Virus record (IMG/VR): IMGVR_UViG_3300036790_000286
Span: 3,319 to 67,318 of that record
Reading direction: 5' to 3' (one strand)
Origin: a virus
Length of the DNA stretch: 64,000 nt
Shown one piece after another: positions 5,923 to 45,660 of this stretch (position 1 is the first letter of the stretch; each line of letters starts with the position of its first letter). The translations under genes were made by a program, and so were the position numbers. A model generated the notes under the pieces. That model saw nothing but the letters and a program-made list of their open reading frames with translations. It did not search any database and was not told where the DNA came from.

Positions 5923-5935
5923 ATGGTAATCTCTG
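5923..5935 (+). promoter_or_regulatory. Late promoter-like motif ATGGTAATCTCTG (1/8)
   Basis: Exact 13-mer, intergenic, upstream of the first late gene; contains an extended -10-like TGnTAATCT. Confidence 0.8.
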
Positions 5936-5977
5936 CGCCGCGCCGGGGCCTCCATCCTCGGCGCGGAGTGGAGAACA

Positions 5978-8900
5978 ATGCTGCGATTCCCTCGCGTGCT
6001 GCTGCTGGCCGTCGCCCTGCTTGCCCTTTTTGCTGGTAGCGCACGGGCTCAGACCCCGAAGCCTATCCCGGTAACCGGCAACCTCGGCACCATCACCGGC
6101 GGACCTCAACCCGACTCCTACGTTCAGCTCACACTGATCAATTGCAGCAGCGGCAACCCCCAAATCACCGGGTATCAGGGCATCGTCAAGACCAGCTACC
6201 GGTTCGTGGCCGACGTCAATGGCAACGTGAATGGAACGGTCTGGCCCAATGACCTGATTGACTGCAACAGCACCACGGGCGCAACGCTCTATTCCCGGCA
6301 AATCGTCTCCGAGGACATCCCGGTCGGCACATCGCTCTGCTACCAGGTGACGTCGACGCAGGGCGTGTGGAACCTCCAGACACAACAGGCAGTTTCCTGC
6401 GGAGCCTCCCCGCCCAATCCCATGGACGGGACGTATAACAACCTGAACGTGAACGGGATTTTCAACGTCAAGGGCGGATTCACGTTCGGAGGCGCCAGCC
6501 AAACCTACCAGCAGGACGGCACTTACAACGCCTTCGCTCTCCAGAATCCATCATCGTCAAACAATGGCATCGCGATGTCGATGGCGCAGTGCTTGACGCT
6601 GCCCTATGCCTGCCGCGTCCTCGCGCCAACCGTATACGCGACAACCGAAATCCCAGCCTGGGAGTTCTACAACTGGACCAACGGCGGCTATCTTCAGTAC
6701 GGCTCGCTTGCCGCGGCGTCGCTGCAGGATCAGCGCTTCGGCGGCTCGTTTAGTTCCGCGCTCAACCCAATCCAGATGAACCCCTACGAGGGCGGCGCTG
6801 CCAATGTGGTTTGGGGCAGCAGCTACGGCAACGCGACTGCGTCACAGGCATCCGTGGGCTACGCCTTTTCAGCGACCCAGACCACCTCTCCCCTCAGCGG
6901 CGGCCCCTGTCTCTCGCAGCTCTACGACAACATTTCGCAGTGTTATCTGTATACCCTGGCTTCGAACGCTCATCGTTACACTTCGGAGGGCTCGTCTCCG
7001 TTTCTGGTGCGTTCCTATGCTTCATCTCCAGGCGATCAGGTTTGGCAGTTAGGGGGGCTGTTCGGACCTGCCGGATGGCAGCATCCCTTTGATGAAGGTC
7101 AGGAGATGTATTCCTTTGTCAACACCGAGACAATCAACGTTTACCGTGGCACAGTCAGTGCCGTAAGTGGGTCGACGGTTACGGTGACGCCAGCGACGCC
7201 GGGCGCAGGTTCTGGCGAAATCATCGCAGGGACGCAGGGAGACGGCAGATATCTCACGGATACCACTTCTGCCGATATTGTGACTGCCACGCCCACGGCT
7301 GTTGTGGCCAACGTTCCCGGGCAGCTGGCTTCCCCAGCCGCCGGATCGACCTATGGCTACTTCGGGTACATGACTTTTTCTTCGATTCCAACCTCGAGCG
7401 CGTGGGGCACGTTCTCTACGGCCGTGACCTATCCATACGGCTCAAAGACGGTTACGTTCTCGTCCTCGGGAGGAACGCTGGCAAGCGGCCTGATCTGCGT
7501 AGCCGACGAAAAAGTGTCTGGGCCGGCCGTGGGCAACTTTGAGATGGTGAACGGCACCGTGTCCGGCAGCTCCGTCACCGCGACCTTCCACAAATCGCAT
7601 CCGGTAGGCGCTGTCTATGCGCAGGGCGGTTATTGCGGCAAGCTGGTCGAGATAGTGGCCGACACCTTTCCCTCCGGGACATTCTGGAGTAACGGAGAGA
7701 ACAGCGGAACCACCACTTATCCGGTTCGCTATCTCTGGCCCATTGTTGGATCGCCGGATGGGGCGACCCTCTGGGTGTTCAACGCCGGCCCCTGGCAAGC
7801 GACCCCTTCCTACGCTGGTTTCGGTACGACGTGGCCCCTGGCGACGAACAAGGCGGTAAATTTCTACAACGGCGCGGAGGTCCTGAGTGTGGCCGGGGCG
7901 AATGGCGACGTGAGCGACAACAAATTTACCCTCGGTGCGAATGCCGCCAATTTCACCACATCCATGACGGTGCAGGAGACGCATCCGGCGCGCCAATCCG
8001 TCAACGGTGGGCAGATTACTTTCTCGCAGTTTTCCCCAGGCGGATTCGAGCATGGGCCGTTCTACAACTTCACCGGCCGGATGCAGACTGCCTACGGAGG
8101 GGTCAACGTCAACAACCAGGCCGCATGGGCGTCCTACGCGGACGGCGGGGGCACCTGGATCCTGCCTCGCGCCGGATTCTATGGGGAAGGCCCGTGGCAG
8201 TATGGCCTTTTCATGAACGACAACACGACGCTCGAGAGTTTGATCGGCGAAGCCGCCGCCACCGCTGTCAATAACACCGAACAGCATATTGTGCAGATGG
8301 ACCACTCCCAGGTCGCGACGGGCGACTACATCTCCTACGTCTACAACGACACCAGCATCGGTGGATCCGCGTGGGACTTCTTTCTGAGAGGCAATACCTC
8401 GCCCATCATGCGCGTCACGCCCGGCGGCATCCTCGGTACCTTTGCGGGGCAGGTGAATTCGAACTACGTCAACGTGTCGACCGGCGCCTTCAGCGGCTAC
8501 ATGCAGAACTGGGTAGCTGACTCGAATAACTTCTCTGGGACCGCCTGGCAATGCACATCCGGGTCGCCCACGGTCACCGCAGGGCAAACCGACCAGTGGG
8601 GCGGGACAACCGCGACCGAATTCCATTTCGCTTCAGCCGGCGCGTTCCAGTGCGAAAACAACTCCAGCCTTGTGAGTGGCGGCGGCACGCCGTTGACCGG
8701 CAGCACAACGTATTCCTCGAAGCTGTCCGCCGAAGGCGCAGTGGGCGATGAGGTCATCATCGTTGGGTTCGCCAATCACAGCAGCGTTGCCAATCTCAGT
8801 ACTTCATGGGCCGACTACACGAGCACGGGCAGCAGCGGCACGACCTTTCCCCAGTTCCTGTTCCTCATGGGGGGCACGGCCTATGCGGGTGAAACTTTCT

Positions 8901-9313
8901 ACGTCCGCAACGCTGTGACCGTTCAGGGCAGCTCGCCTACGTCCGTTCTGGTGACTGGCGATGCGCAGCAAATAACCTCGGTCCCAGCAACGAATCTTCC
9001 CGCAGGAACGACCTATAACTCGATCCCGCCGGGCCAACCCGGAGGATTCGCGGTTGCCCCGCTTGCGGGTACGACCGCAAGCATCGGCGGTTCAGCGATC
9101 ACGGCTGGAAACTGCTCGACAGGAACGGCGACGATCGCTGGCGCTGTCACCACCATGACAGCTCAAGCGACTCCCGCGACCTACCCGGGCGCTCCGTTCT
9201 TCTGGAATGCCTACGTCTCGGGCTCAAACACCGTCACGGTTTCCGTGTGCACGAACTTTGCGACCGGGGGCACCCCGACCGCCTCGACTTACAACGTCCG
9301 AGTTTTGCAATAG
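5978..9313 (+). CDS. Large beta-rich tail-fibre/spike-like protein with Sec signal peptide
   Basis: MLRFPRVLLLAVALLALFAGSARA/Q; S/T/G/N-rich; 14 Cys in apparent local pairs; C-terminal VTVSVCTN...TYNVRVLQ domain. Confidence 0.65.
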   Translation: MLRFPRVLLLAVALLALFAGSARAQTPKPIPVTGNLGTITGGPQPDSYVQLTLINCSSGNPQITGYQGIVKTSYRFVADVNGNVNGTVWPNDLIDCNSTTGATLYSRQIVSEDIPVGTSLCYQVTSTQGVWNLQTQQAVSCGASPPNPMDGTYNNLNVNGIFNVKGGFTFGGASQTYQQDGTYNAFALQNPSSSNNGIAMSMAQCLTLPYACRVLAPTVYATTEIPAWEFYNWTNGGYLQYGSLAAASLQDQRFGGSFSSALNPIQMNPYEGGAANVVWGSSYGNATASQASVGYAFSATQTTSPLSGGPCLSQLYDNISQCYLYTLASNAHRYTSEGSSPFLVRSYASSPGDQVWQLGGLFGPAGWQHPFDEGQEMYSFVNTETINVYRGTVSAVSGSTVTVTPATPGAGSGEIIAGTQGDGRYLTDTTSADIVTATPTAVVANVPGQLASPAAGSTYGYFGYMTFSSIPTSSAWGTFSTAVTYPYGSKTVTFSSSGGTLASGLICVADEKVSGPAVGNFEMVNGTVSGSSVTATFHKSHPVGAVYAQGGYCGKLVEIVADTFPSGTFWSNGENSGTTTYPVRYLWPIVGSPDGATLWVFNAGPWQATPSYAGFGTTWPLATNKAVNFYNGAEVLSVAGANGDVSDNKFTLGANAANFTTSMTVQETHPARQSVNGGQITFSQFSPGGFEHGPFYNFTGRMQTAYGGVNVNNQAAWASYADGGGTWILPRAGFYGEGPWQYGLFMNDNTTLESLIGEAAATAVNNTEQHIVQMDHSQVATGDYISYVYNDTSIGGSAWDFFLRGNTSPIMRVTPGGILGTFAGQVNSNYVNVSTGAFSGYMQNWVADSNNFSGTAWQCTSGSPTVTAGQTDQWGGTTATEFHFASAGAFQCENNSSLVSGGGTPLTGSTTYSSKLSAEGAVGDEVIIVGFANHSSVANLSTSWADYTSTGSSGTTFPQFLFLMGGTAYAGETFYVRNAVTVQGSSPTSVLVTGDAQQITSVPATNLPAGTTYNSIPPGQPGGFAVAPLAGTTASIGGSAITAGNCSTGTATIAGAVTTMTAQATPATYPGAPFFWNAYVSGSNTVTVSVCTNFATGGTPTASTYNVRVLQ

Positions 9314-9340
9314 GACGGATCAGGTAAGGAAAGGACCCTT

Positions 9341-10180
9341 ATGAAAAAGGTGTTGTTTACCGCTCTCGTTGCTCTCCTGCTGGCTGCTTCAGCCAACGCG
9401 CAGTCCCGACCGCTCGGCCAGCTCCGCCCTGAGCGGGCCTATTGCTTCAACTCTTCGCTCGGGTGGATTGCGATCAGTTCGGATGGGACGGGAGGAGACT
9501 CGGTCAATTACCCGCCGGATCCGGTCGCGCTTTTCGGAAGCTACTCAGCCGGGGCTTACTACGCGCTCCAATGCGATTCGAGCGGGAACCTGATTGTAGG
9601 CGGCAGCGGCGACAGCATCACCAGTCCGAACAGCACCCTCGCGGTGGGGGGAACCGCAGGCGCAACGACACTGGACTTCAATACTCTGGCGCAGTTTTGG
9701 TCCAACGGCCCAATCAGCGGCTCTGCCGGGCTGACCCTGGTTCAGAATAAGGTCAGTTACATCGACATCACTGTTCCCGTCGCGATCAGTGTGGGGCATA
9801 TTACTGTTCAGGTAGTTACAGCGGATAATTCGTCCAACCTTTACAACGTAGCGCTCTACCCAACGACAGGCGGATCTGCCCCTCTCGTTCAGTGGGGTCC
9901 TACGGCCGGAACGGCGCTGGGATCCTCCGCGAATACCCCAGCCACGATTGCAACGACCGCTACGGTGAAGGTTTATCCCGGCACCTATCTCCTCACGGTC
10001 ACGACAAATTGTGCCTCGGCGTGCGCCACCTTCTCAGGCACGTCCTCTGCGGCCTTCACCCGGTTCAATCAGAGCGGTACCGGAACGACGACTGGGGCGG
10101 CTTTCGGAACGCTGTCGTCTGTCCCTGTGGCCTTCCATCAGTGGGGAACGGGCGGCGTTGCCATCATCCTCAGCAACTGA
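9341..10180 (+). CDS. Secreted beta-rich structural-like protein
   Basis: AAGGA SD; MKKVLFTALVALLLAASANA/Q; 4 Cys. Confidence 0.65.
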   Translation: MKKVLFTALVALLLAASANAQSRPLGQLRPERAYCFNSSLGWIAISSDGTGGDSVNYPPDPVALFGSYSAGAYYALQCDSSGNLIVGGSGDSITSPNSTLAVGGTAGATTLDFNTLAQFWSNGPISGSAGLTLVQNKVSYIDITVPVAISVGHITVQVVTADNSSNLYNVALYPTTGGSAPLVQWGPTAGTALGSSANTPATIATTATVKVYPGTYLLTVTTNCASACATFSGTSSAAFTRFNQSGTGTTTGAAFGTLSSVPVAFHQWGTGGVAIILSN

Positions 10181-10199
10181 CGGGGTGCTCGAACTCCTT

Positions 10200-10212
10200 A
10201 TGGTAATCTCTG
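10200..10212 (+). promoter_or_regulatory. Late promoter-like motif (2/8)
   Basis: Exact ATGGTAATCTCTG upstream of the lysis cassette. Confidence 0.8.
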
Positions 10213-10246
10213 CCGCGCACGGGGCCAGATTCGGAGAGGAGCCTGG

Positions 10247-10576
10247 GTGTTCGATTGGGCAAACGCAGCTGCAACGGTGGGGGCGGTAGTTGTCGTTCAG
10301 GTGATTGCTCACGTCGCCGGATCCGCAGCGCAGCGGCAGGTTGTCAAGAACATGCAGGAGATTCAGCGGGATCACGACGCCAGGCTTAAGGCTCACGACG
10401 AAGAATTCAAAGCCCTGCCACGAGATTTCGTACCCCGCGTGGAACTTGTTGCCCAGATGCAGTCCATCCGGGAATCCCAGACGCGCAGCGAAATGATCCT
10501 GTTGCGGATGCTGCTCCACAGGGCCGGGATGGGCGATGACAAAGATCTGGCGCTCACAGCTTTAGGGGGAGGGTAA
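10247..10576 (+). CDS. Membrane-anchored coiled-coil protein (lysis cassette, holin/antiholin-like)
   Basis: GAGGAG SD, GTG start, N-terminal hydrophobic segment followed by a coiled coil. Confidence 0.55.
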   Translation: MFDWANAAATVGAVVVVQVIAHVAGSAAQRQVVKNMQEIQRDHDARLKAHDEEFKALPRDFVPRVELVAQMQSIRESQTRSEMILLRMLLHRAGMGDDKDLALTALGGG

Positions 10577-10581
10577 AGACC

Positions 10582-10872
10582 ATGCACTTCGCGCAATTCG
10601 CAATCATCGCCGCTGTGGTCGCAGGGATCGGCATTACCCCGCTGATGTGGAAAGGCATCATCGCGTTTGTGATCTACGTCGGCAAAGCCGAGTACAGCAA
10701 TTCTCCTGAGCCCGGCGTGAAGTGGAGCTGGGAAGTCTTCTACGCATGGCAGCGCGGCACGATCGGGACGATGCTCAACGAGCGCACGCACCAGGAGGCG
10801 AACCCGACGATGCTCTATCCGTCAACGCCCGCAGCCGTCCCGGCCGCGCCTGCGTCCACTACAACCCGATAA
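10582..10872 (+). CDS. Putative holin-like membrane protein
   Basis: Hydrophobic N-terminal half; GGAGG SD; lysis-region position. Confidence 0.5.
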   Translation: MHFAQFAIIAAVVAGIGITPLMWKGIIAFVIYVGKAEYSNSPEPGVKWSWEVFYAWQRGTIGTMLNERTHQEANPTMLYPSTPAAVPAAPASTTTR

Positions 10873-10906
10873 CCGCCGCCCACCCGCGGTCAGAAAGGAA
10901 ACACCA

Positions 10907-11416
10907 ATGAAAAGTTTTCTCAGTTGCGTGTTGCTCTCCCTCGGATCTCTCGTCGCTGCGGCCCAGACCGCTCCTGCGCCAGCTGCTCCCACTGCCGCGC
11001 AGAACATCTATGCCGGCGGACTTTCCTATGACGTCGGCGGAAGTCCGGCGATCGCGGGTACCGCTCTCTATGCGCGGAACCTCAACACCGGGGCAACCCT
11101 GCCGACTTACGCCTTCACCGTGATCGACGCGCTTCCAGAATCCGTGAAGCCGTTCACCGTCTCCACCAACGTGGGCGCCGGCATTGCGCAACAGGTGGCG
11201 AAGGTCGGAAACGTAACTGTCTGGATGCCCACAGCCGCGGGAATCTCCTGGACCGGCACGAATATGGGCTTTCAGTGGAACGGCGGCGCGGGTGCCACCA
11301 TTCCCATCAAGGGCAGTTACGGCCTGATGCCTTCGATTCGCTTCCTCAAATCGAGCGTGAACGGCGGCAGCGGGTACCAGCTGATCCCGGGTCTCCTGTT
11401 CTATTGGGGGAAGTAA
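10907..11416 (+). CDS. Secreted protein, possibly a small outer-membrane beta-barrel
   Basis: MKSFLSCVLLSLGSLVAAA/Q; alternating amphipathic strands; aromatic C-terminus GLLFYWGK. Confidence 0.55.
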   Translation: MKSFLSCVLLSLGSLVAAAQTAPAPAAPTAAQNIYAGGLSYDVGGSPAIAGTALYARNLNTGATLPTYAFTVIDALPESVKPFTVSTNVGAGIAQQVAKVGNVTVWMPTAAGISWTGTNMGFQWNGGAGATIPIKGSYGLMPSIRFLKSSVNGGSGYQLIPGLLFYWGK

Positions 11417-11420
11417 TCCC

Positions 11421-12230
11421 GTGTCTCGGAACAGCACGATAGCGACGGTTACGGGCTGCTGCTGCGCAGTAGCCCTTTCCTCGTTTCTGTGCTGGTTCCT
11501 GTATCAGGAGCGGCAGGACTCCCGCGCCGTAACCTCGAGCGCCACAGCCGCCGTTTCATTGATCGCCAAACAGCTCACGAAAAACGCCGATGGCTTCGAC
11601 CAGACCCGCGCGGTGCTGACTGCGGTGGTCACGGAATTCACCCGGCCCTGCCAGGGGCGCGGCGATGACCCGAATAAATGCGGACTGCTGGCGCAGGTGA
11701 AGGCGACGGCGATCCGCCTTGGGGACGCTGTAGTTACAACGCAATTACAGGTTAAGAACAGCCAGCGCATTATGAACGCGGCTGCCGACGCGCTTACCGG
11801 CGCCGCCGCGGACGTCCACAGCGCGACGATCCATGCCGATGGGGCCGTCGATGAGTTGCAGACTGACCTCGACACCGGCAACAGATACTCTCCGGTGTCC
11901 GGGCTCAACGTCGCCGTCGCGGGCTGGGGCGAAACGGGGACGGACTTCCACAAGCTGCTGACCGACCCGGACAGCAACGTGAATGTCATGTTCGCGAACG
12001 CGAATGGCGCACTGGGCCACTTCAACCACATGGCCGCCGACTCCGACCTGAAGTGGCACGCGCTCCTGTTCCCGCCGCCCTGCCACAGTCTCGGATGCCA
12101 TGCTCTCCAGATCGTAAACGGCGTGCGTGTTGCCGTCGGCGTTGTTGCCCCAGCTGCCGACCTGAACGAAATGTTCAGAGGGGAGCTGATTCGCGGGACT
12201 ATCACCGTCAAGCAGGAGCCGCAACCGTGA
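11421..12230 (+). CDS. Inner-membrane-anchored helical protein (spanin-like)
   Basis: N-terminal TM segment, long Ala-rich helical periplasmic region, Cys pairs. Confidence 0.45.
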   Translation: MSRNSTIATVTGCCCAVALSSFLCWFLYQERQDSRAVTSSATAAVSLIAKQLTKNADGFDQTRAVLTAVVTEFTRPCQGRGDDPNKCGLLAQVKATAIRLGDAVVTTQLQVKNSQRIMNAAADALTGAAADVHSATIHADGAVDELQTDLDTGNRYSPVSGLNVAVAGWGETGTDFHKLLTDPDSNVNVMFANANGALGHFNHMAADSDLKWHALLFPPPCHSLGCHALQIVNGVRVAVGVVAPAADLNEMFRGELIRGTITVKQEPQP

Positions 12231-12397
12231 TCAACCGCTACGACATCCTCGGCGCGCTAACCTTCCTCGCATTCGGAGTGCTGTTTATCATCGCCTGCCT
12301 TCTCGGGCGGAAGCGCGAATGTTCCCTTTGCGGCGGTGATGGGCGTAACCCGTGGGGTGGCAAATGCCAGGTTTGCGGAGGGAAGGGCAAGATATGA
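12227..12397 (+). CDS. TM peptide with DnaJ-type CxxCxGxG zinc finger
   Basis: GTG 12227 overlaps the previous stop; ILGALTFLAFGVLFIIACLL + CSLCGGDG...CQVCGGKG. Confidence 0.55.
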   Translation: MINRYDILGALTFLAFGVLFIIACLLGRKRECSLCGGDGRNPWGGKCQVCGGKGKI

Positions 12398-12882
12398 CCC
12401 CCGAGGGACAGCGTTTCATTGATCTACTGACACCGGACATGGTGCGCGCCTTCTTCCTGTTGTGCTGGAACGCCGATAGCTACGAGAAACTCGCGCCGAC
12501 GATTGGGGCGAATCCAGAAGCACTGGAAGTGATGGCAGAGAGAATGTTCGAGCGCGCGGGGGTGGACTCTCGCCTCGGGCTGTTGCTGTTCGCAGTGAGA
12601 AACGGCATCGGACCCACGACGCTTGAGTCCCCAACCGAATCCAGCCCATGGAAGAGCTTTCGCGCCTACTTCAACCGAAAGTCGGAGGCCCCGCAGGTCT
12701 GGTCGGTGGATGAAGGCACCCAGGAATCTGAGGTCAACGTGAAGGAATACCTCATCCCTCCAGGATGCGGCGCGCAATCGCACTGGAACGATACGCCGGC
12801 AAACAATGACACCCCCGCGGCCTGGATCACTGTCACAGCGCGCGGGTACAAGATAATCGGCGGGACACTCATCTTCTACTGA
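12394..12882 (+). CDS. LuxR-like HTH domain fused to an unknown C-terminal domain
   Basis: LTP...SYEKLAPTIG...MFERAGVDSRLGLLLFAVRNGI resembles LuxR_C; ATGA coupling. Confidence 0.55.
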   Translation: MTPEGQRFIDLLTPDMVRAFFLLCWNADSYEKLAPTIGANPEALEVMAERMFERAGVDSRLGLLLFAVRNGIGPTTLESPTESSPWKSFRAYFNRKSEAPQVWSVDEGTQESEVNVKEYLIPPGCGAQSHWNDTPANNDTPAAWITVTARGYKIIGGTLIFY

Positions 12883-12917
12883 CGCCGCGCGCAACCGGCT
12901 TCCCTTTTTGGTGGCTA

Positions 12918-12930
12918 ATGGTAATCTCTG
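12918..12930 (+). promoter_or_regulatory. Late promoter-like motif (3/8)
   Basis: Exact 13-mer, 6 nt before the endolysin ATG; no SD. Confidence 0.8.
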
Positions 12931-12936
12931 CCGCGC

Positions 12937-13455
12937 ATGGCCGAGCTTCAGCCCACAGACGCAGGTAGCAACATCTACCTCCCGCCATTTCTTGACCTCG
13001 TGGCGTGGTCCGAGGGCACATCGCGTAACCCTGCGACGAAGAACGACGGCTACGACGTGATCGTCACCAGCCACACCGGAATCCCGGAAATCTTCACCGA
13101 CTACACCGACCATCCGTTCGATCAGGGACGGGCGCCGGTTCTGGTTCGGGCTGGCAGTGCTGGGGGGAGGCCGCTCTACTCCGACGCCGCTGGCCGATAT
13201 CAGGAGATGCTGAAAATCTGGCGGGCCTACCGCAGCCAGCTGAACCTTCCCGACTTCTCCCCCCGCTCTCAGGACCTCATCGCGCGCCAGCTCATCAGCG
13301 ACTGCAACGCGCTCCATCTGATCGCAGGCGGAGAAATCGGCGCTGCCATCACAGCCTGCTCGAAGGAGTGGGCCAGCTTCCCGGGAAACAGCTACGGGCA
13401 GGGCAATAACTCGATGGACGCTCTGCTTGCCAAATATGCAGAACTGAAGGGGTAA
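12937..13455 (+). CDS. Endolysin, lambda R-type lytic transglycosylase (GH104)
   Basis: FLDLVAWSEGT, GYDVIV, FTDYTDHP, SDAAGRYQ, LPDFSPRSQD, EWASFPGNSYGQ all match lambda R motifs. Confidence 0.92.
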   Translation: MAELQPTDAGSNIYLPPFLDLVAWSEGTSRNPATKNDGYDVIVTSHTGIPEIFTDYTDHPFDQGRAPVLVRAGSAGGRPLYSDAAGRYQEMLKIWRAYRSQLNLPDFSPRSQDLIARQLISDCNALHLIAGGEIGAAITACSKEWASFPGNSYGQGNNSMDALLAKYAELKG

Positions 13456-13460
13456 CGACG

Positions 13461-13925: not shown

Positions 13926-13927
13926 CG

Positions 13928-17206: not shown

Positions 17207-17823
17207 GCCGGAAGATGATCGCCGTGATCTGCCGGCACGGCGAGACGGATCTGAATGCCGGCAACCGTTTTCGCGGTTGGCTGGACGTGCCGCTTGATTC
17301 GGCCGGAGAAGAGCAGGCAGAGGCGGCGGCATCGTTTCTGACGCTCCAGTACGACATAAAGCGCATCATTTCCAGCCCACTGCTCCGCGCGTTCACCACC
17401 GCGCAACTATTCTCGAAAATGGCAGAGCTGCCCGTTTCTCAGGACCGCGGCCTTTTGCCCTGGCACGTCGGGATACTGTCCGGGCTGCCAAAGAACGAAG
17501 CCATGCCGGCGCTGAAACTTTTCGTTCAAAACCCCCATGTGAGCATCCCGAACGGAGAGAGCCTTCAGGACTTCGAGACGCGCGCGTGTGAGTTCTACAC
17601 CCGCGAATTCAAAGAGGCGGAGAGTGAAGGGCTGACCGCGATGTTCGCGCACACCTCGAACGTCACCGTGCTTGAAAATCTGGTCTCTGGCTGCCGCGGC
17701 GGAGAACCGGAATCGGGAGAAACGGTCAAGCCGGGCGGGATCTGCGCGGTCTGGTTCGACGGTGAAAAGTACGAGGTGGAACCCGTCTTCGGCAAGCCCG
17801 AGGCTGCAAACTACGGCAGCTGA
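17203..17823 (+). CDS. Histidine phosphatase (PGAM family)
   Basis: RHGETDLN, GWLDVPL, SSPLLRAFTTA, PNGES and second His (FAHTS). Confidence 0.9.
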   Translation: MSRKMIAVICRHGETDLNAGNRFRGWLDVPLDSAGEEQAEAAASFLTLQYDIKRIISSPLLRAFTTAQLFSKMAELPVSQDRGLLPWHVGILSGLPKNEAMPALKLFVQNPHVSIPNGESLQDFETRACEFYTREFKEAESEGLTAMFAHTSNVTVLENLVSGCRGGEPESGETVKPGGICAVWFDGEKYEVEPVFGKPEAANYGS

Positions 17824-17834
17824 AAGCGCTGGTA

Positions 17835-17845
17835 ATGGTAATCTC
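17835..17845 (+). promoter_or_regulatory. Late promoter-like motif, variant (4/8)
   Basis: ATGGTAATCTC followed by CCCCGCGC; intergenic. Confidence 0.65.
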
Positions 17846-17881
17846 CCCCGCGCAGTAAACCTACTTACGCAGGAGAGAGCA

Positions 17882-18367
17882 ATGGCACCAATCACGTTCC
17901 GTAACTCGAAAATCGTCTATTACGGGCCGCACAGTTGTGAGAATTGCGGCGTCACCATCGCAAAAATGGGGAGAGAGTGGGGCGGTACCGCCTTCACTTA
18001 TCCCGAGGGGCCAATCTACCCAAACACCGAGTGGCACCCCCACGTTTGTGACCCCACAGCCAGCAAAGTTCTTGCCGCGAACCGCGCAGCAGAACGCATT
18101 ATCGTTGATTGGCCAAACGCGGTTGCCCACCAGGTTGGCAAGCTCGGCTACGTCGTCCTCGGACGGCCACTTGAACCAGGACACCAGCACGGCCTTGTCA
18201 TCAGCGGGTGTAGCACATTCTTTGATACGGACGATGCTGCCTGGGTGGGGGCGTTGCGAGTGCTCAACGAGCACATGCCTTACTGGGAAATGGACCTCCG
18301 AAAGTATCACGCGAATTCGGAGTTTTCCGATGATCTGGACCGACTGCCGGAGTGTCCTACCCCGTAG
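17882..18367 (+). CDS. Hypothetical protein with CxxC...HxC motif
   Basis: AGGAG SD, ATG 17882; SCENCG...WHPHVC. Confidence 0.6.
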   Translation: MAPITFRNSKIVYYGPHSCENCGVTIAKMGREWGGTAFTYPEGPIYPNTEWHPHVCDPTASKVLAANRAAERIIVDWPNAVAHQVGKLGYVVLGRPLEPGHQHGLVISGCSTFFDTDDAAWVGALRVLNEHMPYWEMDLRKYHANSEFSDDLDRLPECPTP

Positions 18368-18414
18368 GTAAGCGAGCTGGGAATTGTCGCCATCGTTTGC
18401 GTTTTTGACCGCTA

Positions 18415-18427
18415 ATGGTAATCTCTG
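18415..18427 (+). promoter_or_regulatory. Late promoter-like motif (5/8)
   Basis: Exact 13-mer, 8 nt before ATG 18436. Confidence 0.8.
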
Positions 18428-18435
18428 CGGCGCAA

Positions 18436-19926: not shown

Positions 19927-19985
19927 TTTCCAGTGCGTCGCGAAGATGAGGACGCTTCACCAGCCATAGGACAGGAGCCTTTCTC

Positions 19986-21284: not shown

Positions 21285-21303
21285 GTCGGGAGCTGCCGAT
21301 TGC

Positions 21304-21328
21304 GGCGGCAGGCTTAAGTCCTGCCGCC
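21304..21328 (+). terminator. Stem-loop after capsid gene (weak terminator or mRNA-stabilising hairpin)
   Basis: GGCGGCAGG-CTTAAGT-CCTGCCGCC, 9-bp stem with a poor U tract. Confidence 0.45.
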
Positions 21329-21364
21329 CTTCATCACGGAGAAGTCAACGGAGAGGATGGCAAA

Positions 21365-22366: not shown

Positions 22367-22430
22367 GGCTCCGGCAGCCAATGTTCTCCTGGGCGGTGAT
22401 GAGCCGCCCGGGGGCTTTCGAGGCTAGCGA

Positions 22431-23186: not shown

Positions 23187-23202
23187 GGAGAGAAGAAAGC
23201 AC

Positions 23203-24228: not shown

Positions 24229-24238
24229 GGGGGGAGCT

Positions 24239-24937: not shown

Positions 24938-24968
24938 AAAAGCAGCTTTGTGGCGCGAGCCGTAGAAA

Positions 24969-25133
24969 TCACCACTGCCGAGCCGCGAAATCCTCATCGC
25001 ACTCGTCCTCAGTGCAGTAGTAGCCCAGCGGCGCGCGGTACATCTGGACTTTCTCGCCCACGGTCCCGCACGCCGCACACTTGGCATAGGGACCAAAGTG
25101 CCACGAAAAGAGCCTCTCCAGGAAGCGCCTCAT
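24969..25133 (-). CDS. 54-aa zinc-finger microprotein (counter-oriented moron)
   Basis: MRRFLERLFSWHFGPYAKCAACG...YYCTEDECDEDFAARQW; ATGA overlap with the upstream ORF. Confidence 0.55.
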   Translation of the reverse strand: MRRFLERLFSWHFGPYAKCAACGTVGEKVQMYRAPLGYYCTEDECDEDFAARQW

Positions 25134-25231: not shown

Positions 25232-25237
25232 TTCCAC

Positions 25238-25266: not shown

Positions 25267-25290
25267 GTTCAAGGCAGTTCGCGGCGGCTA

Positions 25291-25303
25291 ATGGTAATCT
25301 CTG
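25291..25303 (+). promoter_or_regulatory. Late promoter-like motif (6/8)
   Basis: Exact 13-mer upstream of the tail genes. Confidence 0.8.
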
Positions 25304-25384
25304 TCGCGCTTGGACGGCTGATGCCGCTCACCAACCGCAGCTAACTGAACCCGCGGCTCGCGCGCCGCGCCGGAGGAATAGCAA

Positions 25385-26134: not shown

Positions 26135-26138
26135 CGCG

Positions 26139-31163: not shown

Positions 31164-31170
31164 CCGCCTT

Positions 31171-31183
31171 ATGGTAATCTCTG
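31171..31183 (+). promoter_or_regulatory. Late promoter-like motif (7/8)
   Basis: Exact 13-mer, 6 nt before ATG 31190; no SD. Confidence 0.8.
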
Positions 31184-31189
31184 CGCGCC

Positions 31190-45300: not shown

Positions 45301-45640
45301 AAGTCGGGTTCTCCGCGCTGCCGGCGTCGGCAATGCCTCTTCCTCGCTGGACTATTCCCCCGCCGAGACGCGGATGCGGGCGGTGCGCTTCCACCAGCCG
45401 CAGACCCCGGAGCAGATGAAGGCCAGGGAGCAGGAGCACATGCAGCCAACTCGCACACAGATCCGCCGTGCGATCAGGGACGGCAAGCTCGATTACGCGC
45501 AGAAGCTGTTCCGCGGTTTGAGTTACGCCGAGGCTCGGGACATCTACGACAATTACGCCACGCCGGCCGAGCGGGCCGAGCTCGCAGGGATGCTCCGCGA
45601 GAAGCGCAATCGCACCCTCCAGCGCGAAGGGCGGCAATAA
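33347..45640 (+). CDS. Giant polyvalent ejection protein (4,097 aa): GGDEF-like + 2H phosphoesterase + N6-MTase + SF2 helicase (DarB-like)
   Basis: TGLPNRRAF/DADGLKALND/GDALL/KGDEF (about 35770-36180); PHITLRYG and YKPHATLGY (36842, 37082); LEPAAGTGNF and NPPF (38555); AHVVGAGKT, DEAH, TGTP, EQRNGRAVRQGN. ATG 33347 follows the previous stop. Confidence 0.9.
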   Translation: MSTQAVTLDPGDVEVQGAQSSGQQPVSLGADDVEIDNSAAEAHTAAQTRSDQAMRTLGQGMLANETAAYQPPTLPAAPNLGRPPARQPSVAQTALNDTTPPSSRFVTPQQPAPTTYQEATTQASTHNAPVLSPGEVEIIGGPRSAAQIAGQTDVQEEPLGAAIAGPAPGTRPMNPQESATYENSPPTGFGAGPQQAAHEIWEGTGDIARGAGYGDDLQIGPRDPSMMARGATETMRGAMYMGTPMFAEAAASAPVKAGLSYLAGVVGGKAAGAAAKAAGLTPDEQEFWNTAGFFIPNALTALAGVRGVSVQGPDGTAGKGFTAFGGRVGGGVATSPEAVGAGVRVGPFSASVVKPRDAGVQFSTQTPTALPDPAEVLRQQQNDASMRAALAADALDQASSNVINGKPPVPPQPKPPMPAGMDQAVLHADTVQRVAGAISMAPPQMRPQLTMEAHQNLAKWIAEKGTVMGPDGRIATAKTPEQASAIAAKWINDEVARQDTARNEAAKAQKEASAKAASNQEGKNEVTPPPTLQQRAQTVIDANEAQTPVQVAKTLLRQVGIPYSQGLEMVKQARAGKAPSIETAGEPVAPEAKAEIDGKVDDLKAGNVKAVLLPEGSSYIPTLPEGIKRVDVRQGPGAGTYLYDPQAIRAATIKAAAKAGTHEDLLAPNENPVKQNEPESLTEPPAVKQEVASSLAHDGDPLTREIEDKNNLLAFQPIHPDDVPPGAKPNEDGEFVLEVMEEPTAGKLGKIIVGQVKEGAQRGKFVLGNPVRKAKTTVGASVKPPAPERRQDTGQRQRVAEMSPEDMRRTLLTSDKTGLPNRRAFDEAEHGRSAPAVAMSDADGLKALNDKFGYAAGDALLKAKAEALQAAGLEAYHDKGDEFLYRGASANEIKGKLERAREILRNRTIEVETTDGETLRFKGADFSYGTGANLGESETALKSHKSQREASGERARGELRGITEVGPEKGEVGEGAAAGSLAARGPAATMEAGAEAHPALAQLPREQQRAAAERDVEAQKDQMAAQLRHLGQAGAAEYARANPDLKSLVDDILSRPEASKEVSHVGSADNRGVSGAGTEAGSRIAEAVGAHPEGGGDKREPAPGESPLQPRSAEPAKYKYGNTQAAIPKGSDADRALAVARARIDPKDLISTEYGGNSEGLETEPHITLRYGLKDEETAGIRAFLEKQAPFEATLGKTTSFPPSKSSDGGAPIIAPVEAADLRRIEAELDKHGNFIDRTFPEYKPHATLGYVKPETASKYVGMTETEGKTFPVKAIEISMRDGSKEVVPLKGGSSALNKTYEAEVAKFAGDPKARMERVEAENRRHAEQLLAEKFPGQRIGSAGRVEPTSSGATAPEKTMDRKGGRGESPEQTPGAAIAKGARVSFTDRTGKERTGVVAHTDGRIARIKDDTDRKSYSVAAAKVKSLAAAGEQAQNEETNASGIGKPAGLAEAGGGRPAPVAESSDRERLGEASTGVLPGVEGEGNAPDGNQPDRSDVRGDLAPVSEQGAEPGPGAGSDTGIDRAPAGPVIRKATAALAKPKALNREWFSHADAWKPPTGTVGRLEANLNAIRILRDVEKSPRKLTDAEKEALSNYVGWGALQHAFMPYGAPHDEIGRWRAANAELQKLLTPDELARAQESTKNAHYTSPELVRFMWDTMARFGFKAGNVLEPAAGTGNFLGMMPKGLRAKVNAIANEMDAVSFGITKLLYPGATLFNKDFADLILPDNDVDVAIGNPPFGGYKLYDPTYKKLNALVHDFFFVKSLDKVRPGGVLAFITSTGTLDKMDPDIRNILASKADFLGAIRLPSGAFKANAGTDVTTDLIFLQKRAPGQTAKHAAEWTNSVPQSLPTKEGNAENLNVNEYFQKHPEMMLGKPTASTKMYGGMGFLLEPHEGRSIPDLLKEAQGKLPRGIIAEAGQQATGNNLASTAAEFAPDALHEGQYTVDAKGTLKQRVNGKLVNPEAVLDKAGKPVFSKIQRFKALVDVRDSMNRLLSTMVTAPDDEIGNSLVAGLRESLQKDYDAFVRKYGYLNSSANGAFRDDPHYPRLLALETWDKAARQGTPADIFRRRTIFPREELRALPEDPAAALQLVLAERGFPDVQMMGRLRNEPVANVVKKLADRGLIYRNPASGNYETRETYLSGYVRDKLKDAKRAVTQGMKDYAPNVEALEKVIPADIEIGEDPKTSIAVRLGSTWIPTDAIEEFIRDTFKSPGTVKYNIGNWQVRNIRDTAEARGLYSTPRAGSSDLLEDTLNLRQTTIYDYHSDGSRTLNSDATTAAQAAQQKIREAFQRWAVASPWKPELQRLYNDAYNNLAQVEYDGSHLTFPGMNSSIRLTAHQVNAVWRILQDGRALLAHVVGAGKTFEMVAAAMEGRRVGTFKKPMITVPNHIVEQFRQEFLHLYPGANLLVPSETDFDAKNRQRIMSRIATGNFDAVILPHSQFNLMDISPERQRVTIQKQKAELRETIQAVAEQEGKKSRTVKQLEKAMAALDATLKKLADLKADKAINFDDTGIDQLFVDEAHMYKNLSFYTKMTRIAGLQQAKAKSALRLKMKTEYLQDRNGGRGVVFATGTPVQNTMAELYTMFKYVAPDVLEKAGIRFFDDWAANFGSVITAMELAADGRSYKARSKFAQFQNVPELMNMFRSFADIKTAEDLNLPTPELETGKPIVVPVPASPRLEAFVSHLMERAERVKSGSVDPRVDNMLKITTDGRKAATDMRLIDPTLPDDTDSKINKAVDTMFEVWKDGKEELSAGPTTQMGFLDLYRSIEGGKTEDGTKIPEKELINLYRDIKKKLMERGVPAEQIAIIGEHDTRVKRQALFSAMNAGKVRILLGSTFKMGAGTNAQRLLKALHHIDLTWRPGDLEQRNGRAVRQGNLNPSVRLYNYLTERSFDAYMAQTLQGKAEFISQVMSGRNKQRVMADAASEMVLSLEEMKIAASGNPDVKIQYDLQMQAAQLRALERNFFSQRRMNQQEASMASMRADRFEADVTALSTATEKIKAAEATGAEDGKGIKVEVDGKTFTDRKALFDHLEAMDIPPVNFHMTWNGIGVAVEVKPANKESQAQGISGLNYQPDYITGRNFAAPSRDMTSLARSLESRLRQIPTDLEEAKVELPRLRAKAQRLDEIAQSKDFPEKAQMEKVEKELAEVERRLGIRSDVENAMAQAVTAEVSDDPEEDLLSDNDGEEDPEAEEQQEDADKADEGIAERDETPRPGVVLRSSLLGLDVLAEFAAKQGKVLWDADIAPNLSTFGEGARSAGKAIVNVLYPRLGANDDAQDILARARGKLESHLFHLETLDGGLEKFFEAMPRDGQLAFIDRYKLGVGQPDARLQQIEDIMRRIDDASLREAQRYKPTLQAKEDHFRVIWKVVPFGGGAQGGKTAQFAKTKRPWQGDKGFMRRATLDTISEGINAGGVPVTTNPWKLFTLAQSSMMKFISAQQAWAAAKTVGLRKYVERGQQVPEGWVKINDRIADVYFPEKALSVDVDQLPTRTLGPQKKEWVAKEDLETHRVMANPGSWYGEPGFGRLLNNYLSPDLLRQSALGKGLLFAKNLSTAIELGMSPFHLIFETLEAMGSQFGLGVQRVWNNGVRLGDGRELTRGMTEIGSAVAAPFLISHAGGSLKRFATDPAQFFSTTRGQRFLRQYPNAAGAMQELFNGGLTWGIQRDYRFDPQKSMIEAAKEGNYIGAVLRVAPWINTVLMKPLFEAYIPRLKWGLALQQYSQQLVENQEALGNGDMTRTEIARKVADTVENRFGEMNFNNIYWNNTFKSVLQLLFRSVTWKLGNWRGLGSAAGPEAFSAFRDPLEAMRKNARSSKGTGPGARAGEYIPRIGMNQAWILGMVATTAVIGSILTRYWTRKWPWEIASEDREEGYSLPGALALEVVHPRTGRINQFTGKPERLSLPTGLRDFEHAFRDPGGYIKGSLSGTVSHLYDTLENQDAFKNYVYDPNGSLYRKTADIFAYNMPEPISFQNWHNQNGAVDTESRVLRAAGVGNASSSLDYSPAETRMRAVRFHQPQTPEQMKAREQEHMQPTRTQIRRAIRDGKLDYAQKLFRGLSYAEARDIYDNYATPAERAELAGMLREKRNRTLQREGRQ
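36129..36290 (+). CDS. Nested +1-frame microprotein (53 aa) at the end of the GGDEF-like domain
   Basis: AAGGAG 12 nt upstream; ...GSFEELLKLDPKKVKSVKVLPPGA; G/C-ending codons shift to this frame in its 3' half. Confidence 0.4.
   Translation: MAQAQTSENPKPPSSPTSPSAKPAESGPVGSFEELLKLDPKKVKSVKVLPPGA
36537..36764 (+). CDS. Nested +1-frame protein (75 aa) before the 2H domain
   Basis: Perfect AAGGAGGT SD 5 nt before ATG; amphipathic MLDQQTIAEFQERARKLDPASQKQLERILKE; codon bias favours this frame. Confidence 0.6.
   Translation: MLDQQTIAEFQERARKLDPASQKQLERILKEGETNGNLHPVSHHFSPEALNRQNTNTATPRPPSQRAATPTAPSQ
37653..37937 (+). CDS. Nested +1-frame TnpV/DUF1896-like helical protein before the MTase domain
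   Basis: WEKHRPAYFRELK...L...GLNPDQAREAIQE pattern; GC3-rich codons; ATG 37653 or 37665. Confidence 0.65.
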   Translation: MKKPMPAESENPQVSLKPEEDARLPSLKARIESDWEKHRPAYFRELKAKETLQTEINRTALMCVETLHQFQNKGLNPDQAREAIQELIVPQPGR

Positions 45641-45660
45641 AGGTAATCTGTTTCGCGCAG
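45641..45660 (+). promoter_or_regulatory. Late promoter-like motif, variant (8/8)
   Basis: AGGTAATCTGTTTCGCGCAG fills the whole 20-nt gap before ATG 45661. Confidence 0.6.

What the first reader, a model, noticed from the sequence alone, without database searches (positions are those of the whole stretch)
5923..45660. Phage-specific late promoter ATGGTAATCTCTG-N-CGCGC with no -35, often nearly leaderless
Seen: six exact ATGGTAATCTCTG copies (5923, 10200, 12918, 18415, 25291, 31171) plus variants at 17835 and 45641. All are on the + strand, at gene boundaries in the late region, followed by a CGCGC-like tract, with nothing conserved upstream. In four cases an ATG follows TAATCT by 9-11 nt with no SD. 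Known: TGnTAnnnT is an extended -10, and T4 late promoters also lack -35. Inference: a dedicated late transcription system whose factor is not obvious; no sigma or RNA polymerase gene was recognised in the window.
Basis: partly seen in the sequence, partly recalled or inferred. Interest (0 to 1): 0.7.

Follow-up and report, generated by a model that had tools for sequence, protein, structure and literature searches.

The report
Extended -10 late promoters, Acidobacteria phage
Eight near-identical short sequences in front of the structural and lysis genes of an uncultivated soil (Acidobacteria) phage look like -35-independent "extended -10" promoters, most likely read by the host's own RNA polymerase, and each related phage carries its own private spelling of the same signal.

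Summary
Six exact ATGGTAATCTCTG copies and two variants lie on the + strand (0 expected by chance). All eight fall in the 3% of the late region that is non-coding.

The window is most of a 67.3-kb virus record. Its relatives are labelled Acidobacteriaceae.

Six relatives carry a repeated motif of their own, at orthologous gene junctions. Across 38 sites in 7 genomes:
- T-15 (37/38), G-14, T-12, A-11 and T-7 (each 38/38) are fixed.
- Positions -13 and -10 differ between genomes.

The fixed positions are those I recall as the base-specific contacts of a primary sigma factor on an extended -10 promoter (TGnTAnnnT).

The host MAGs show a TAnnnT peak 12-13 nt before start codons, so leaderless genes exist there. 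Phage genes that start 8-15 nt after the hexamer lack a Shine-Dalgarno sequence. Those with longer leaders in this phage have one.

No sigma or RNA polymerase gene was found in six genomes.

Best reading: promoters for host sigma-A holoenzyme, as with Thermus phage P23-45 middle/late promoters. One thing stays unexplained: the 20-22-nt cassette is uniform within each genome. No RNA data were available, so start sites and timing are inferred.

The parts
5920..5941 (+). Promoter cassette 1 (TAAATGGTAATCTCTGCGCCGC). Hexamer TAATCT at 5927-5932. It precedes the 1,111-aa secreted protein gene 5978-9313 by a 45-nt leader that carries GGAG.
   Evidence: Homologues of the downstream gene also follow a site in G005, G006 and G007.
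10197..10218 (+). Promoter cassette 2. Hexamer at 10204-10209. It precedes small membrane-protein genes 10247-12882 by a 37-nt leader with GGAG.
12915..12936 (+). Promoter cassette 3. Hexamer at 12922-12927. The ATG of the endolysin gene 12937-13455 lies 9 nt after the hexamer, with no SD.
   Evidence: (endolysin, phrog_90). Syntenic with L008 site 1215.
17832..17853 (+). Promoter cassette 4, a variant (…TAATCTCCC…). Hexamer at 17839-17844. It precedes ORF 17882-18367 by a 37-nt leader with AGGAG.
18412..18433 (+). Promoter cassette 5. Hexamer at 18419-18424. The ATG at 18436 of the Ala/Pro-rich 496-aa protein, just upstream of the capsid gene, lies 11 nt after the hexamer, with no SD.
   Evidence: A site precedes the homologue of this gene in 6 of 6 other genomes examined.
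25288..25309 (+). Promoter cassette 6. Hexamer at 25295-25300. It precedes gene 25385-26134 by an 84-nt leader with GGAGG.
   Evidence: Syntenic with L008 15231 and G007 61685.
31168..31189 (+). Promoter cassette 7. Hexamer at 31175-31180. The ATG at 31190 of a 188-aa protein lies 9 nt after the hexamer, with no SD. This transcription unit contains the giant DarB-like ORF.
   Evidence: A site precedes the homologue in 5 of 5 complete relatives.
45637..45658 (+). Promoter cassette 8, a variant (AGGTAATCTGTTTCGCGC, with A in place of T at -15). Hexamer at 45644-45649. The ATG at 45661 of a 177-aa protein lies 11 nt after the hexamer, with no SD. It heads the unit 45661-48020, which I take to be the packaging genes; no family hit supports that.

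Best explanation
The eight sites are transcription promoters of the sigma-70 'extended -10' class: TG at -15/-14, a TAnnnT hexamer (here TAATCT) and a G+C-rich discriminator. They need no -35 element. They divide the + strand structural, lysis and packaging region of this Acidobacteriaceae-associated phage into about eight transcription units.

The most likely reader is the host RNA polymerase with its primary sigma factor. Sigma region 3.0 would read TG and region 2 would read T-12, A-11 and T-7.

Initiation is predicted about 7-8 nt after the hexamer, at a conserved C-G step. Four genes (12937, 18436, 31190, 45661) would then have 2-4-nt leaders and be translated without an SD. The other four units have 37-84-nt leaders with an SD.

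Shown here: the sequence pattern, its position, its conservation, and the host's use of TAnnnT with leaderless genes.
For: 1. The motif is real, strand-specific and intergenic.

2. Comparative anatomy, from 38 sites in 7 genomes aligned on the hexamer:
- Fixed: T-15 37/38, G-14 38/38, T-12 38/38, A-11 38/38, T-7 38/38.
- Variable: -13 is G in 20 and C in 18 sites; -10 is A 13, C 10, G 10, T 5.
- Further relatives add A and T at -13 and the hexamers TAGAGT and TATGTT.
- By recall, the fixed positions are the base-specific contacts of sigma-70-family region 2 and 3.0.

3. Position is conserved while sequence is not. A site precedes the homologue of the 18436 gene in 6/6 other genomes and the homologue of the 31190 gene in 5/5 complete relatives.

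4. A C then G at the 7th and 8th nt after the hexamer (27/38 and 29/38; consensus in 6 of 7 genomes) sits where a start site is expected.

5. Host context, from a 772-kb sample of two Acidobacteriaceae MAGs with 551 crude genes:
- TANNNT peaks with its first T 12 nt (24 cases) and 13 nt (10 cases) before start codons, against about 2-3 per position elsewhere.
- In these 34 hexamers C is the commonest base at -8 (19/34), as in the phage motif (33/38).
- Zheng et al. 2011 read such signals as promoters of leaderless genes (PMC3160421, passages read).

6. SD logic. 21 of 26 other late-strand genes have an SD-like 4-mer. One of the 5 misses came from my wrong start coordinate. 0 of 4 short-leader genes have one. 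18 of 38 sites have a start codon 15 nt or less after the hexamer (for 37 sites; the G004 site added is read; the G006 site is counted by hand at the conserved ATG 8 nt after the hexamer, where the script picked a GTG at 2 nt).

7. No phage sigma or RNA polymerase:
- Pfam and PHROG scans of the ORFs gave only an XRE-type HTH.
- Sigma70_r2 searched in six frames gave 0 of 6 genomes at E<=1.
- No orthologous DxDGD motif was found.

8. A clear intrinsic-terminator-like hairpin with a T-run lies just upstream of the site in 4 cases: G003 63292, G004 44230, G005 47680 and G006 43515.

9. Precedent. P23-45 middle/late promoters are of the extended -10 class and are read by host sigma-A holoenzyme (PMC3950348 and PMC7403470, passages read).
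Against: - There are no transcript data, so no start site, strength or timing is shown.
- Sigma-A alone does not explain why all 5-8 copies in a genome agree at positions it barely reads. Agreement at -13 and -10 is 0.974, against a mean of 0.577 and a maximum of 0.737 in 10,000 label shuffles. Nor does it explain why a 20-22-nt cassette is kept.
- The phage hexamer has T at -9 (32/38). That is the rarest base there in the host's leaderless hexamers (4/34).
- Start codons lie 8-15 nt after the hexamer, not the host's 6-7 nt. The mRNAs would be short-leadered, not canonically leaderless.
- Strong factor-independent promoters before lysis genes would be a problem in lysogens, and at least one relative encodes an integrase. 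Some control layer is therefore missing from this account.
- The host assignment rests on MAG labels and binning.
Confidence: 0.68

Rival explanations
1. Same promoters, plus a fast-evolving phage-encoded reader. A small phage protein would recognise the genome-specific positions of the cassette (-21..-16, -13, -10, -6..-1) that are interleaved with the sigma-A contacts. It could be a repressor whose operator overlaps every late promoter, or an RNAP-bound factor that stabilises the open complex. It would set late timing or lysogenic silencing. This adds to the best explanation; it does not exclude it.
For: - Within-genome agreement at -13 and -10 is 0.974; 0 of 10,000 label shuffles reach it.
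- Copies of the 21-22-nt cassette differ by 0-6 mismatches within a genome, while orthologous sites in relatives are spelt differently.
- Even close relatives differ in concert: G000 cTAATGG…, L008 GGAAATGC… (85% capsid identity), L089 gAAATGG… (88%).
- Conversion between tracts of about 20 nt with no flanking homology is mechanistically unlikely (my inference).
- One relative has an integrase, so late promoters must be silenced somehow.
- Small RNAP-binding switch proteins can diverge beyond detection, as reported for phiFa gp15 against P23-45 gp39 (PMC4124052, passages read).
Against: - No candidate protein was found. None of the 22 small ORFs of this phage that I tested has homologues in all five complete relatives.
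- The only recognised regulator is one XRE-type HTH (56531-56836), not found in the relatives.
- No extra copy of the cassette lies in the early region or on the other strand, as one would expect for an autoregulated repressor.
- G004 and L026 tolerate variation at -13 within one genome.
Confidence: 0.28
2. A phage-encoded, highly diverged sigma-like factor (in the way of T4 gp55 or SPO1 gp28/gp34) replaces host sigma-A and reads the motif. This is the 'dedicated late system' of the first reader.
For: - Near-identical promoters repeated within a genome are, by recall, typical of phage-specific sigma or RNAP systems.
- No -35 element in this phage.
- Most ORFs have no family assignment, so a diverged factor could hide among them.
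Against: - The positions conserved across the lineage are those of a primary-sigma extended -10, and relatives show a weak -35-like TWG at a 16-nt spacer.
- C at -8 matches the host's own hexamers.
- Sigma70_r2: 0 of 6 genomes. No sigma hit in Pfam or PHROGs.
- The non-structural proteins shared by all six genomes are RecT-like (by eye), a PD-(D/E)XK nuclease, an SbcC-like ATPase and DnaB. An HNH nuclease and one unknown 306-aa protein recur in most of them.
Confidence: 0.1
3. The sites are not promoters but another cis element at gene starts. Options are asymmetric 'stoperator'-like repressor sites that block elongation, 'start-associated sequences' that act on translation, or an RNA processing site in read-through transcripts.
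For: - The sites are strand-oriented, intergenic, 13-22 nt long and sit close to start codons. By recall, this resembles mycobacteriophage Cluster A stoperators and Cluster K start-associated sequences.
Against: - This does not explain why exactly TG, T-12, A-11 and T-7 are invariant over 38 sites while the other positions drift.
- It does not explain why SD presence depends on the distance to the start codon.
- Only 5-8 copies per genome, none in the early region.
- No shared RNA fold: 7 of 8 site regions have z-scores between -1.1 and +1.5. No Rfam family matches.
Confidence: 0.07

Closest known systems
[quoted passage not shown]
   Same: Phage middle and late genes are driven by -35-independent TGn extended -10 promoters that the host sigma-A holoenzyme reads. 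The phage carries no sigma of its own. (PMC3950348, PMC7403470 and PMC4124052, passages read.)
   Different: - No gp39- or gp76-like protein was identified here, and sequence alone could not find one.
- The hexamer is TAnTCT-like.
- Each genome keeps a private, near-identical 20-22-nt cassette.
- The host phylum is Acidobacteriota.
- Berdygulova et al. 2011, the primary promoter paper, could not be read, so I did not compare logos.
Promoters of leaderless genes in high-G+C bacteria (TANNNT about 12 nt before the start codon; Zheng et al. 2011, PMC3160421)
   Same: A TAnnnT hexamer with uninformative middle positions, no SD, and a start codon close downstream. The host MAG sample shows this signal at 12-13 nt.
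   Different: In the phages the first T lies 14-21 nt before the start codon (a gap of 8-15 nt), so 2-8-nt leaders are predicted, not none. The phage sites add TG and an A-rich -18..-16, which are only mildly enriched or absent in the host set.
T4 late promoters (TATAAATA, read by gp55/gp33 with the sliding clamp); recalled, not looked up
   Same: Late genes, no -35 element, one short conserved -10-region motif repeated through the late region.
   Different: The motif is not TATAAATA. TG at -15/-14 is invariant. No gp55- or gp33-like protein was detected.
Mycobacteriophage Cluster A stoperators (asymmetric 13-bp repressor sites); recalled, not looked up
   Same: Asymmetric, oriented with transcription, intergenic, and spelt differently in related phages.
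   Different: Only 5-8 copies, none in the early or immunity region. The conserved positions follow sigma logic. No repressor was identified.

Membership tests
Extended -10 (TGn) sigma-70-family promoter | TG dinucleotide at -15/-14, one base upstream of the -10 hexamer | tested here: met
   T-15 37/38 and G-14 38/38 over 7 genomes. The one exception is the window site at 45641 (AG).
Extended -10 (TGn) sigma-70-family promoter | -10 hexamer with T-12, A-11 and T-7 | tested here: met
   38/38 at each of the three positions. The middle positions vary between genomes.
Extended -10 (TGn) sigma-70-family promoter | -35 element dispensable or absent | tested here: met
   This phage has no -35-like consensus. 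Relatives have only a weak T(T/A)G at a 16-nt spacer (T-34 23/38, G-32 25/38). The E. coli-type -35/-10 scan found no more than chance.
Extended -10 (TGn) sigma-70-family promoter | Primary transcripts start about 6-9 nt downstream of the hexamer, made by sigma-A holoenzyme | not testable with these tools
   No RNA run was listed for this sequence. There is only an indirect hint: a conserved C-G step at the 7th and 8th nt.
Leaderless-gene promoter (TANNNT about 12 nt before the start codon) | First T of the hexamer 12-13 nt before the start codon, so the mRNA begins at the start codon | tested here: not met
   The host peak is at 12-13 nt. The phage short class is at 14-21 nt, and 15 or 17 nt in this window. 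These are short-leadered, not canonically leaderless.
Leaderless-gene promoter (TANNNT about 12 nt before the start codon) | No Shine-Dalgarno sequence before the start codon | tested here: met
   0 of 4 short-leader genes against 21 of 26 other late-strand genes.
T4-type late transcription (gp55/gp33) | TATAAATA -10 element and a gp55-like sigma | tested here: not met
   The motif is TGnTAATCT. No transcription-related PHROG or Pfam hit apart from an XRE-type HTH.
Phage-encoded RNA polymerase promoters (T7- or N4-like) | A phage RNA polymerase gene | tested here: not met
   The 4,099-aa ORF is DarB-like (methyltransferase and helicase), not an N4-type virion RNAP. No RNAP family appeared among the ORFs. 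No orthologous DxDGD motif was found (a weak test).
P23-45-type promoter-class switch | A phage protein that disables -35 recognition so that extended -10 promoters win | not testable with these tools
   No candidate was found. Such proteins are reported to diverge beyond sequence detection (PMC4124052).
Stoperator-type repressor sites | Many copies over the genome, including the early or immunity region, with a cognate repressor | tested here: not met
   5-8 copies, all on the late strand. No further convincing copy at up to 6 mismatches of the 21-22-mer.

The most novel reading that the evidence does not exclude
Each phage of this lineage speaks a private 'promoter dialect'. A rapidly evolving, still unidentified phage protein would read the genome-specific bases that are interleaved with the universal sigma-A contacts in every late promoter. 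It could be a repressor overlapping the -10 region, or an RNAP-bound factor that reads the opened non-template strand. Late-gene expression would then be insulated from related co-infecting phages or prophages and switched as one block. That would be immunity-like specificity built into the -10 region itself.
Probability: 0.25. Interest if true: 0.75.

Novelty: new member of a known kind. Interest (0 to 1): 0.45.

Why it matters
Transcription signals of Acidobacteriota and their phages appear almost undescribed in the library I could search:
- My search for Acidobacteria, 'leaderless' and 'transcription start' returned two general surveys.
- The paper on the first cultured Acidobacteriota phages contains none of the words promoter, transcription or sigma.
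- The capsid of this phage has no match among 50,697 deposited phage records.

The sites give a ready-made set of compact, -35-independent promoters for a phylum that lacks genetic tools, with natural variants in the relatives. They also give a testable operon map for a roughly 67-70-kb phage lineage found in soil metagenomes.

The concerted, genome-specific spelling of the cassette is a clean comparative puzzle. Its solution could uncover a new kind of small phage transcription regulator.

Tried and rejected
- RNA evidence: no RNA holder was listed for window 17500-26500.
- N4-like virion RNAP idea for the giant ORF: rejected. It is DarB-like, with methyltransferase and helicase parts.
- Motif scan of viral contigs with ATGGTAATCTCTGNNGCGC: one hit (L007), a low-G+C unrelated sequence, taken as chance.
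- E. coli-type -35/-10 and terminator consensus scans: no more than the shuffles gave.
- Sigma-54 reading of TGG…TGC: rejected by eye. The GG-to-GC spacing is 8 nt where I recall 10, and relatives lack the GG.
- Shadow ORF 47523-48245 looked conserved but overlaps, on the opposite strand, the conserved gene 46935-48020. I take that gene to be a terminase; no family search supports the name.
- Candidate factors:
  - 12352/12394-12882 gives only a weak LuxR/GerE-type HTH lead. It is absent from 4 of 5 complete relatives and lies downstream of one of the promoters itself.
  - 4849-5430 gave nothing.
  - The 306-aa early protein, with matches in all five relatives by tblastn and in 3 of 5 by blastp clustering, had no sequence match in the PDB. 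Its AlphaFold model had mean pLDDT 43.5, so no fold search was made.
- phmmer of 22 small ORFs against six-frame ORFs of five relatives: none is shared by all.
- DxDGD motif scan for a hidden two-barrel RNAP: only 4 sporadic, non-orthologous hits.
- Berdygulova et al. 2011 (PMC3018760) is not held.
- Supplements of the papers cited were not consulted.

Full report
**What the window is.** The window is bases 3319-67318 of a 67,318-bp IMG/VR virus record, estimated 98% complete. G+C is about 61%.

The + strand from about 5.9 to 48 kb carries these genes:
- an endolysin (12937-13455, phrog_90);
- a conserved 812-aa protein;
- a 432-aa protein I take to be the major capsid protein by its position and conservation; it has no family hit, and it was my query for relatives;
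- a giant 4,099-aa DarB-like methyltransferase-helicase ORF;
- genes I take to be for packaging; no family hit supports that.

The - strand from 48 to 64 kb is a tightly packed replication and recombination operon:
- DnaB with a LAGLIDADG intein;
- an N6/N4 methyltransferase;
- an SbcC-like ATPase;
- a PD-(D/E)XK nuclease;
- an HNH nuclease;
- one XRE-type HTH.

The capsid has no match in 50,697 deposited phage records. It has 44 homologue clusters in metagenomes. The named ones come from MAGs labelled Terracidiphilus sp. and Edaphobacter sp., and one from a 'Patescibacteria group' MAG. The same phage, at 100% capsid identity, sits on a 57-kb contig binned into an Acidobacteriaceae MAG. The host is therefore probably an Acidobacteriaceae bacterium. 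This rests on labels and binning only.

**The observation.**
- ATGGTAATCTCTG occurs six times, all on the + strand, at the stated coordinates. No shuffle gave a single match.
- Allowing 2 mismatches adds only 17835. The variant at 45641 is real.
- All eight GGTAATCT in the whole record are these sites.
- The repeated unit is longer than 13 nt. A 22-mer, CTAATGGTAATCTCTGCCGCGC, matches the eight sites with 0-5 mismatches. The one other hit at up to 6 mismatches lies inside the giant ORF at 40679 and lacks the TA of the hexamer.
- All eight sites fall in non-coding gaps, which are 3.0% of the late region. 8 of the 14 gaps of 20 nt or more hold a site.

**Relatives.** A search with the capsid protein brought in:
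- a close relative, L008 (85% identity);
- 18 further viral contigs;
- 16 metagenome contigs.

I fetched five complete relatives of 68-70 kb, G003 to G007. Two have direct terminal repeats.

None carries the window's 13-mer. Each has its own strand-specific repeated motif:

| Genome | Motif | Copies |
|---|---|---|
| L008 | GGAAATGCTAATCTCT | 5 |
| G003 | ctAAAAATGGTAGGGTACGC | 5 |
| G004 | aAAATG[C/G]TAT[T/C]CT | 5 |
| G005 | aAAATGGTAGTCTCT | 5 |
| G006 | cGATCTGCTACTCTGCGT | 5 |
| G007 | TGCTACTCTTT | 5 |

Partial loci add more:
- TGGTACTCT;
- TGATACTCT;
- TG[T/C]TACTCT;
- TAATGGTATGTT;
- GAAAATGGTAGAGT (4 copies);
- gAAATGGTAATCT in an 88%-identity relative.

**Alignment of the sites.** I aligned 38 sites from 7 genomes on the hexamer.
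- Fixed positions: T-15 37/38, G-14 38/38, T-12 38/38, A-11 38/38, T-7 38/38.
- Mostly kept: T-9 (32/38), C-8 (33/38) and an A-rich -18..-16.
- Variable: -13 is G or C (A and T in further loci), and -10 takes all four bases.

The lineage-wide consensus is therefore TGnTAnnnT. From established knowledge of sigma-70 holoenzymes (recalled, not looked up), TG is read by sigma region 3.0, and T-12, A-11 and T-7 by region 2. The middle of the hexamer is read weakly. The pattern of conservation and variation is what an extended -10 promoter predicts.

**Position is conserved.** The sites sit at orthologous junctions:
- before the Ala/Pro-rich protein upstream of the capsid gene in 6 of 6 other genomes;
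- before the 31190 homologue in 5 of 5 complete relatives;
- before the homologue of the large secreted protein in G005, G006 and G007;
- before the 25385 homologue in L008 and G007.

The flanking DNA is unalignable.

**Start site and translation.**
- The 7th and 8th nt after the hexamer are C (27/38) and G (29/38). This is the consensus in 6 of 7 genomes and holds at 7 of 8 window sites, by eye.
- By recall, initiation about 7-8 nt after the hexamer at a pyrimidine-purine step is the usual rule. This predicts starts near 5940, 10217, 12935, 17852, 18432, 25308, 31187 and 45657.
- Four window genes begin 9 or 11 nt after the hexamer and have no SD. The other four units have 37-84-nt leaders with GGAG or AGGA.
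- 21 of 26 other late-strand genes have an SD-like 4-mer. One of the five misses was my wrong start: 17870 instead of 17882, which has AGGAG. 0 of 4 short-leader genes have one.
- Over all genomes, 18 of 38 sites have a start codon 15 nt or less after the hexamer. This uses one search's automatic starts for 37 sites, takes the G004 site added, and corrects the G006 site by hand to the conserved ATG at 8 nt.

**Host context.** I took 772 kb from the two Acidobacteriaceae MAGs and made 551 crude gene calls.
- TANNNT peaks sharply with its first T 12 nt (24 cases) and 13 nt (10 cases) before start codons, against about 2-3 per position elsewhere.
- About 6% of genes therefore look leaderless. The host uses a TAnnnT -10 element with C favoured at -8 (19/34).
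- Zheng et al. 2011 describe this signal in high-G+C bacteria (PMC3160421, passages read).
- The phage short-leader genes sit 2-9 nt further from the hexamer than the host's leaderless genes. They are short-leadered, not canonically leaderless.
- T-9, which is typical of the phage sites, is the rarest base at that position in the host set (4/34).

**Is the motif phage-specific?**
- In the 4.4-Mb MAG that holds the phage contig, the exact 13-mer occurs six times, all in that contig.
- One further place matches at 1 mismatch. At 2 mismatches there are 30 places outside that contig, plus the variant site inside it. The backwards control pattern gave 13.
- The degenerate TGnTAnTCT occurs 5 times in 372 kb over both strands, or 0.67 per 100 kb of strand. 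On the phages' late strand it occurs 7.3-23.6 times per 100 kb, and on their other strand 0-1.5. G003, whose hexamer is TAGGGT, does not fit this pattern.

**Who reads it?**
- Pfam and PHROG scans of all plausible ORFs found no sigma, anti-sigma or RNA polymerase.
- Sigma70_r2 searched in six frames found nothing in any of six genomes at E<=1, while it registered in 11 of 14 control genomes.
- There is no orthologous DxDGD motif.
- The non-structural proteins shared by all six genomes are a RecT-like protein (named by eye only), a PD-(D/E)XK nuclease, an SbcC-like ATPase and DnaB. An HNH nuclease matched in 4 of 5 relatives. A 306-aa protein of unknown fold matched in all five by tblastn and in 3 of 5 by blastp clustering.
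- With the sigma-type conservation logic and the weak -35-like T(T/A)G at a 16-nt spacer in relatives, host sigma-A holoenzyme is the most economical reader.
- The closest documented case is Thermus phage P23-45. Its middle and late promoters are extended -10 promoters read by host holoenzyme. Phage gp39 displaces sigma region 4 and shuts off -10/-35 promoters (PMC3950348, PMC7403470 and PMC4124052, passages read).

**What this does not explain.** Within each genome the copies agree even at positions sigma barely reads.
- Agreement at -13 and -10 is 0.974, against a mean of 0.577 and a maximum of 0.737 in 10,000 label shuffles.
- A 20-22-nt cassette is kept.
- Orthologous sites in a relative with 85% capsid identity have all changed together (cTAATGG… against GGAAATGC…).
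- Independent drift under sigma-A selection alone would give mixed spellings. Only G004 and L026 show a little of that.
- Conversion between 20-nt tracts without flanking homology seems unlikely (my inference).
- A genome-specific reader is therefore a serious addition to the model. It could be a repressor overlapping the -10 region or an RNAP-bound factor.
- At least one relative encodes a tyrosine integrase, so late promoters must be silenced somehow.
- I found no candidate protein. There is no extra copy of the cassette in the early region.

**Other readings.**
- An RNA element is unlikely. There is no Rfam match and no shared fold: 7 of 8 z-scores lie between -1.1 and +1.5.
- A stoperator-like or start-associated cis element does not account for the sigma-type invariants.
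- Sigma-54 spacing does not fit, by eye.

**Verdict.** It over-reaches in inferring a dedicated T4-like system.

This is a new member of a known promoter class in an undescribed Acidobacteria phage lineage, with an unexplained genome-specific cassette. Every functional statement (start site, timing, reader) is inference. No transcript data could be obtained.

Noticed in passing
window 63739-64000: A 57-bp tandem repeat, 4.6 copies at 98% match, runs into the end of the record. Its 11-mers occur 7 times in the whole record. It lies in the - strand ORF 63713-63970. It may be a true terminal or coding repeat, or an assembly effect.
   Followed up: partly
window 1540-1650: Several copies of CGTAACG-containing repeats (gttcgccgtaacg…) lie just upstream of ORF 1654-2958, which matches replication-initiation PHROGs (phrog_270). 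They look like iterons of an origin.
   Followed up: no
window 51106-53808 (-): The DnaB helicase is interrupted by a LAGLIDADG / Hom_end homing-endonuclease domain, intein-like: 900 aa against 447-476 aa in the five relatives.
   Followed up: no
window 33107/33341-45640 (+): A giant ORF of 4,099-4,177 aa. It is DarB-like (phrog_10089), with methyltransferase and SNF2/ResIII helicase hits, plus weaker GGDEF-like and 2'-5' RNA-ligase-like hits. Its size varies widely in relatives, from 903 to 3,771 aa.
   Followed up: partly
window 5930-5974: The leader downstream of promoter 1 folds into a strong hairpin (-35.3 kcal/mol, z -3.65) that pairs the GGAG of the SD of gene 5978. It may stabilise the 5' UTR or control translation.
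   Followed up: no
window 12394-12882 (+): The N-terminal 75 aa or so give a weak LuxR/GerE-type HTH lead (feature score 0.75; TM 0.40/0.65). There is no Pfam hit. The ORF is absent from 4 of 5 complete relatives.
   Followed up: partly
G004-G007 (e.g. G004 7589-9283 and 9267-9638, oriented coordinates): Four relatives carry a pair of adjacent genes whose products read by eye as GroEL-like (539-592 aa) and GroES-like (109-123 aa). No family search was run on them. This phage has neither.
   Followed up: no
L030:16385-17626 (-) in G003: A tyrosine integrase (PF00589, E 3.6e-12) in a relative whose record is classed as having direct terminal repeats. At least part of the lineage is temperate.
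   Followed up: partly
G006, L022, L025, L026; G007: Other repeat families occur in relatives. GCAGGACTC / GAGTCCTGC copies lie on both strands, hairpin-like, in G006, L022, L025 and L026. G007 has a unit repeated 14 times (GCTTGGGCATCGAGGCTGGCTTG-like).
   Followed up: no
Host MAG sample (G001, G002; L049-L088): About 6% of crude gene calls (34 of 551) in two Acidobacteriaceae MAGs have TANNNT exactly 12-13 nt before the start codon. This suggests a sizeable leaderless transcriptome in this family.
   Followed up: partly
window 46154-46933 and 46935-48020 (+): Two adjacent genes are conserved in all five complete relatives by tblastn. By position at the end of the late strand they may be a split large terminase, but they have no Pfam or PHROG hit.
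   Followed up: no
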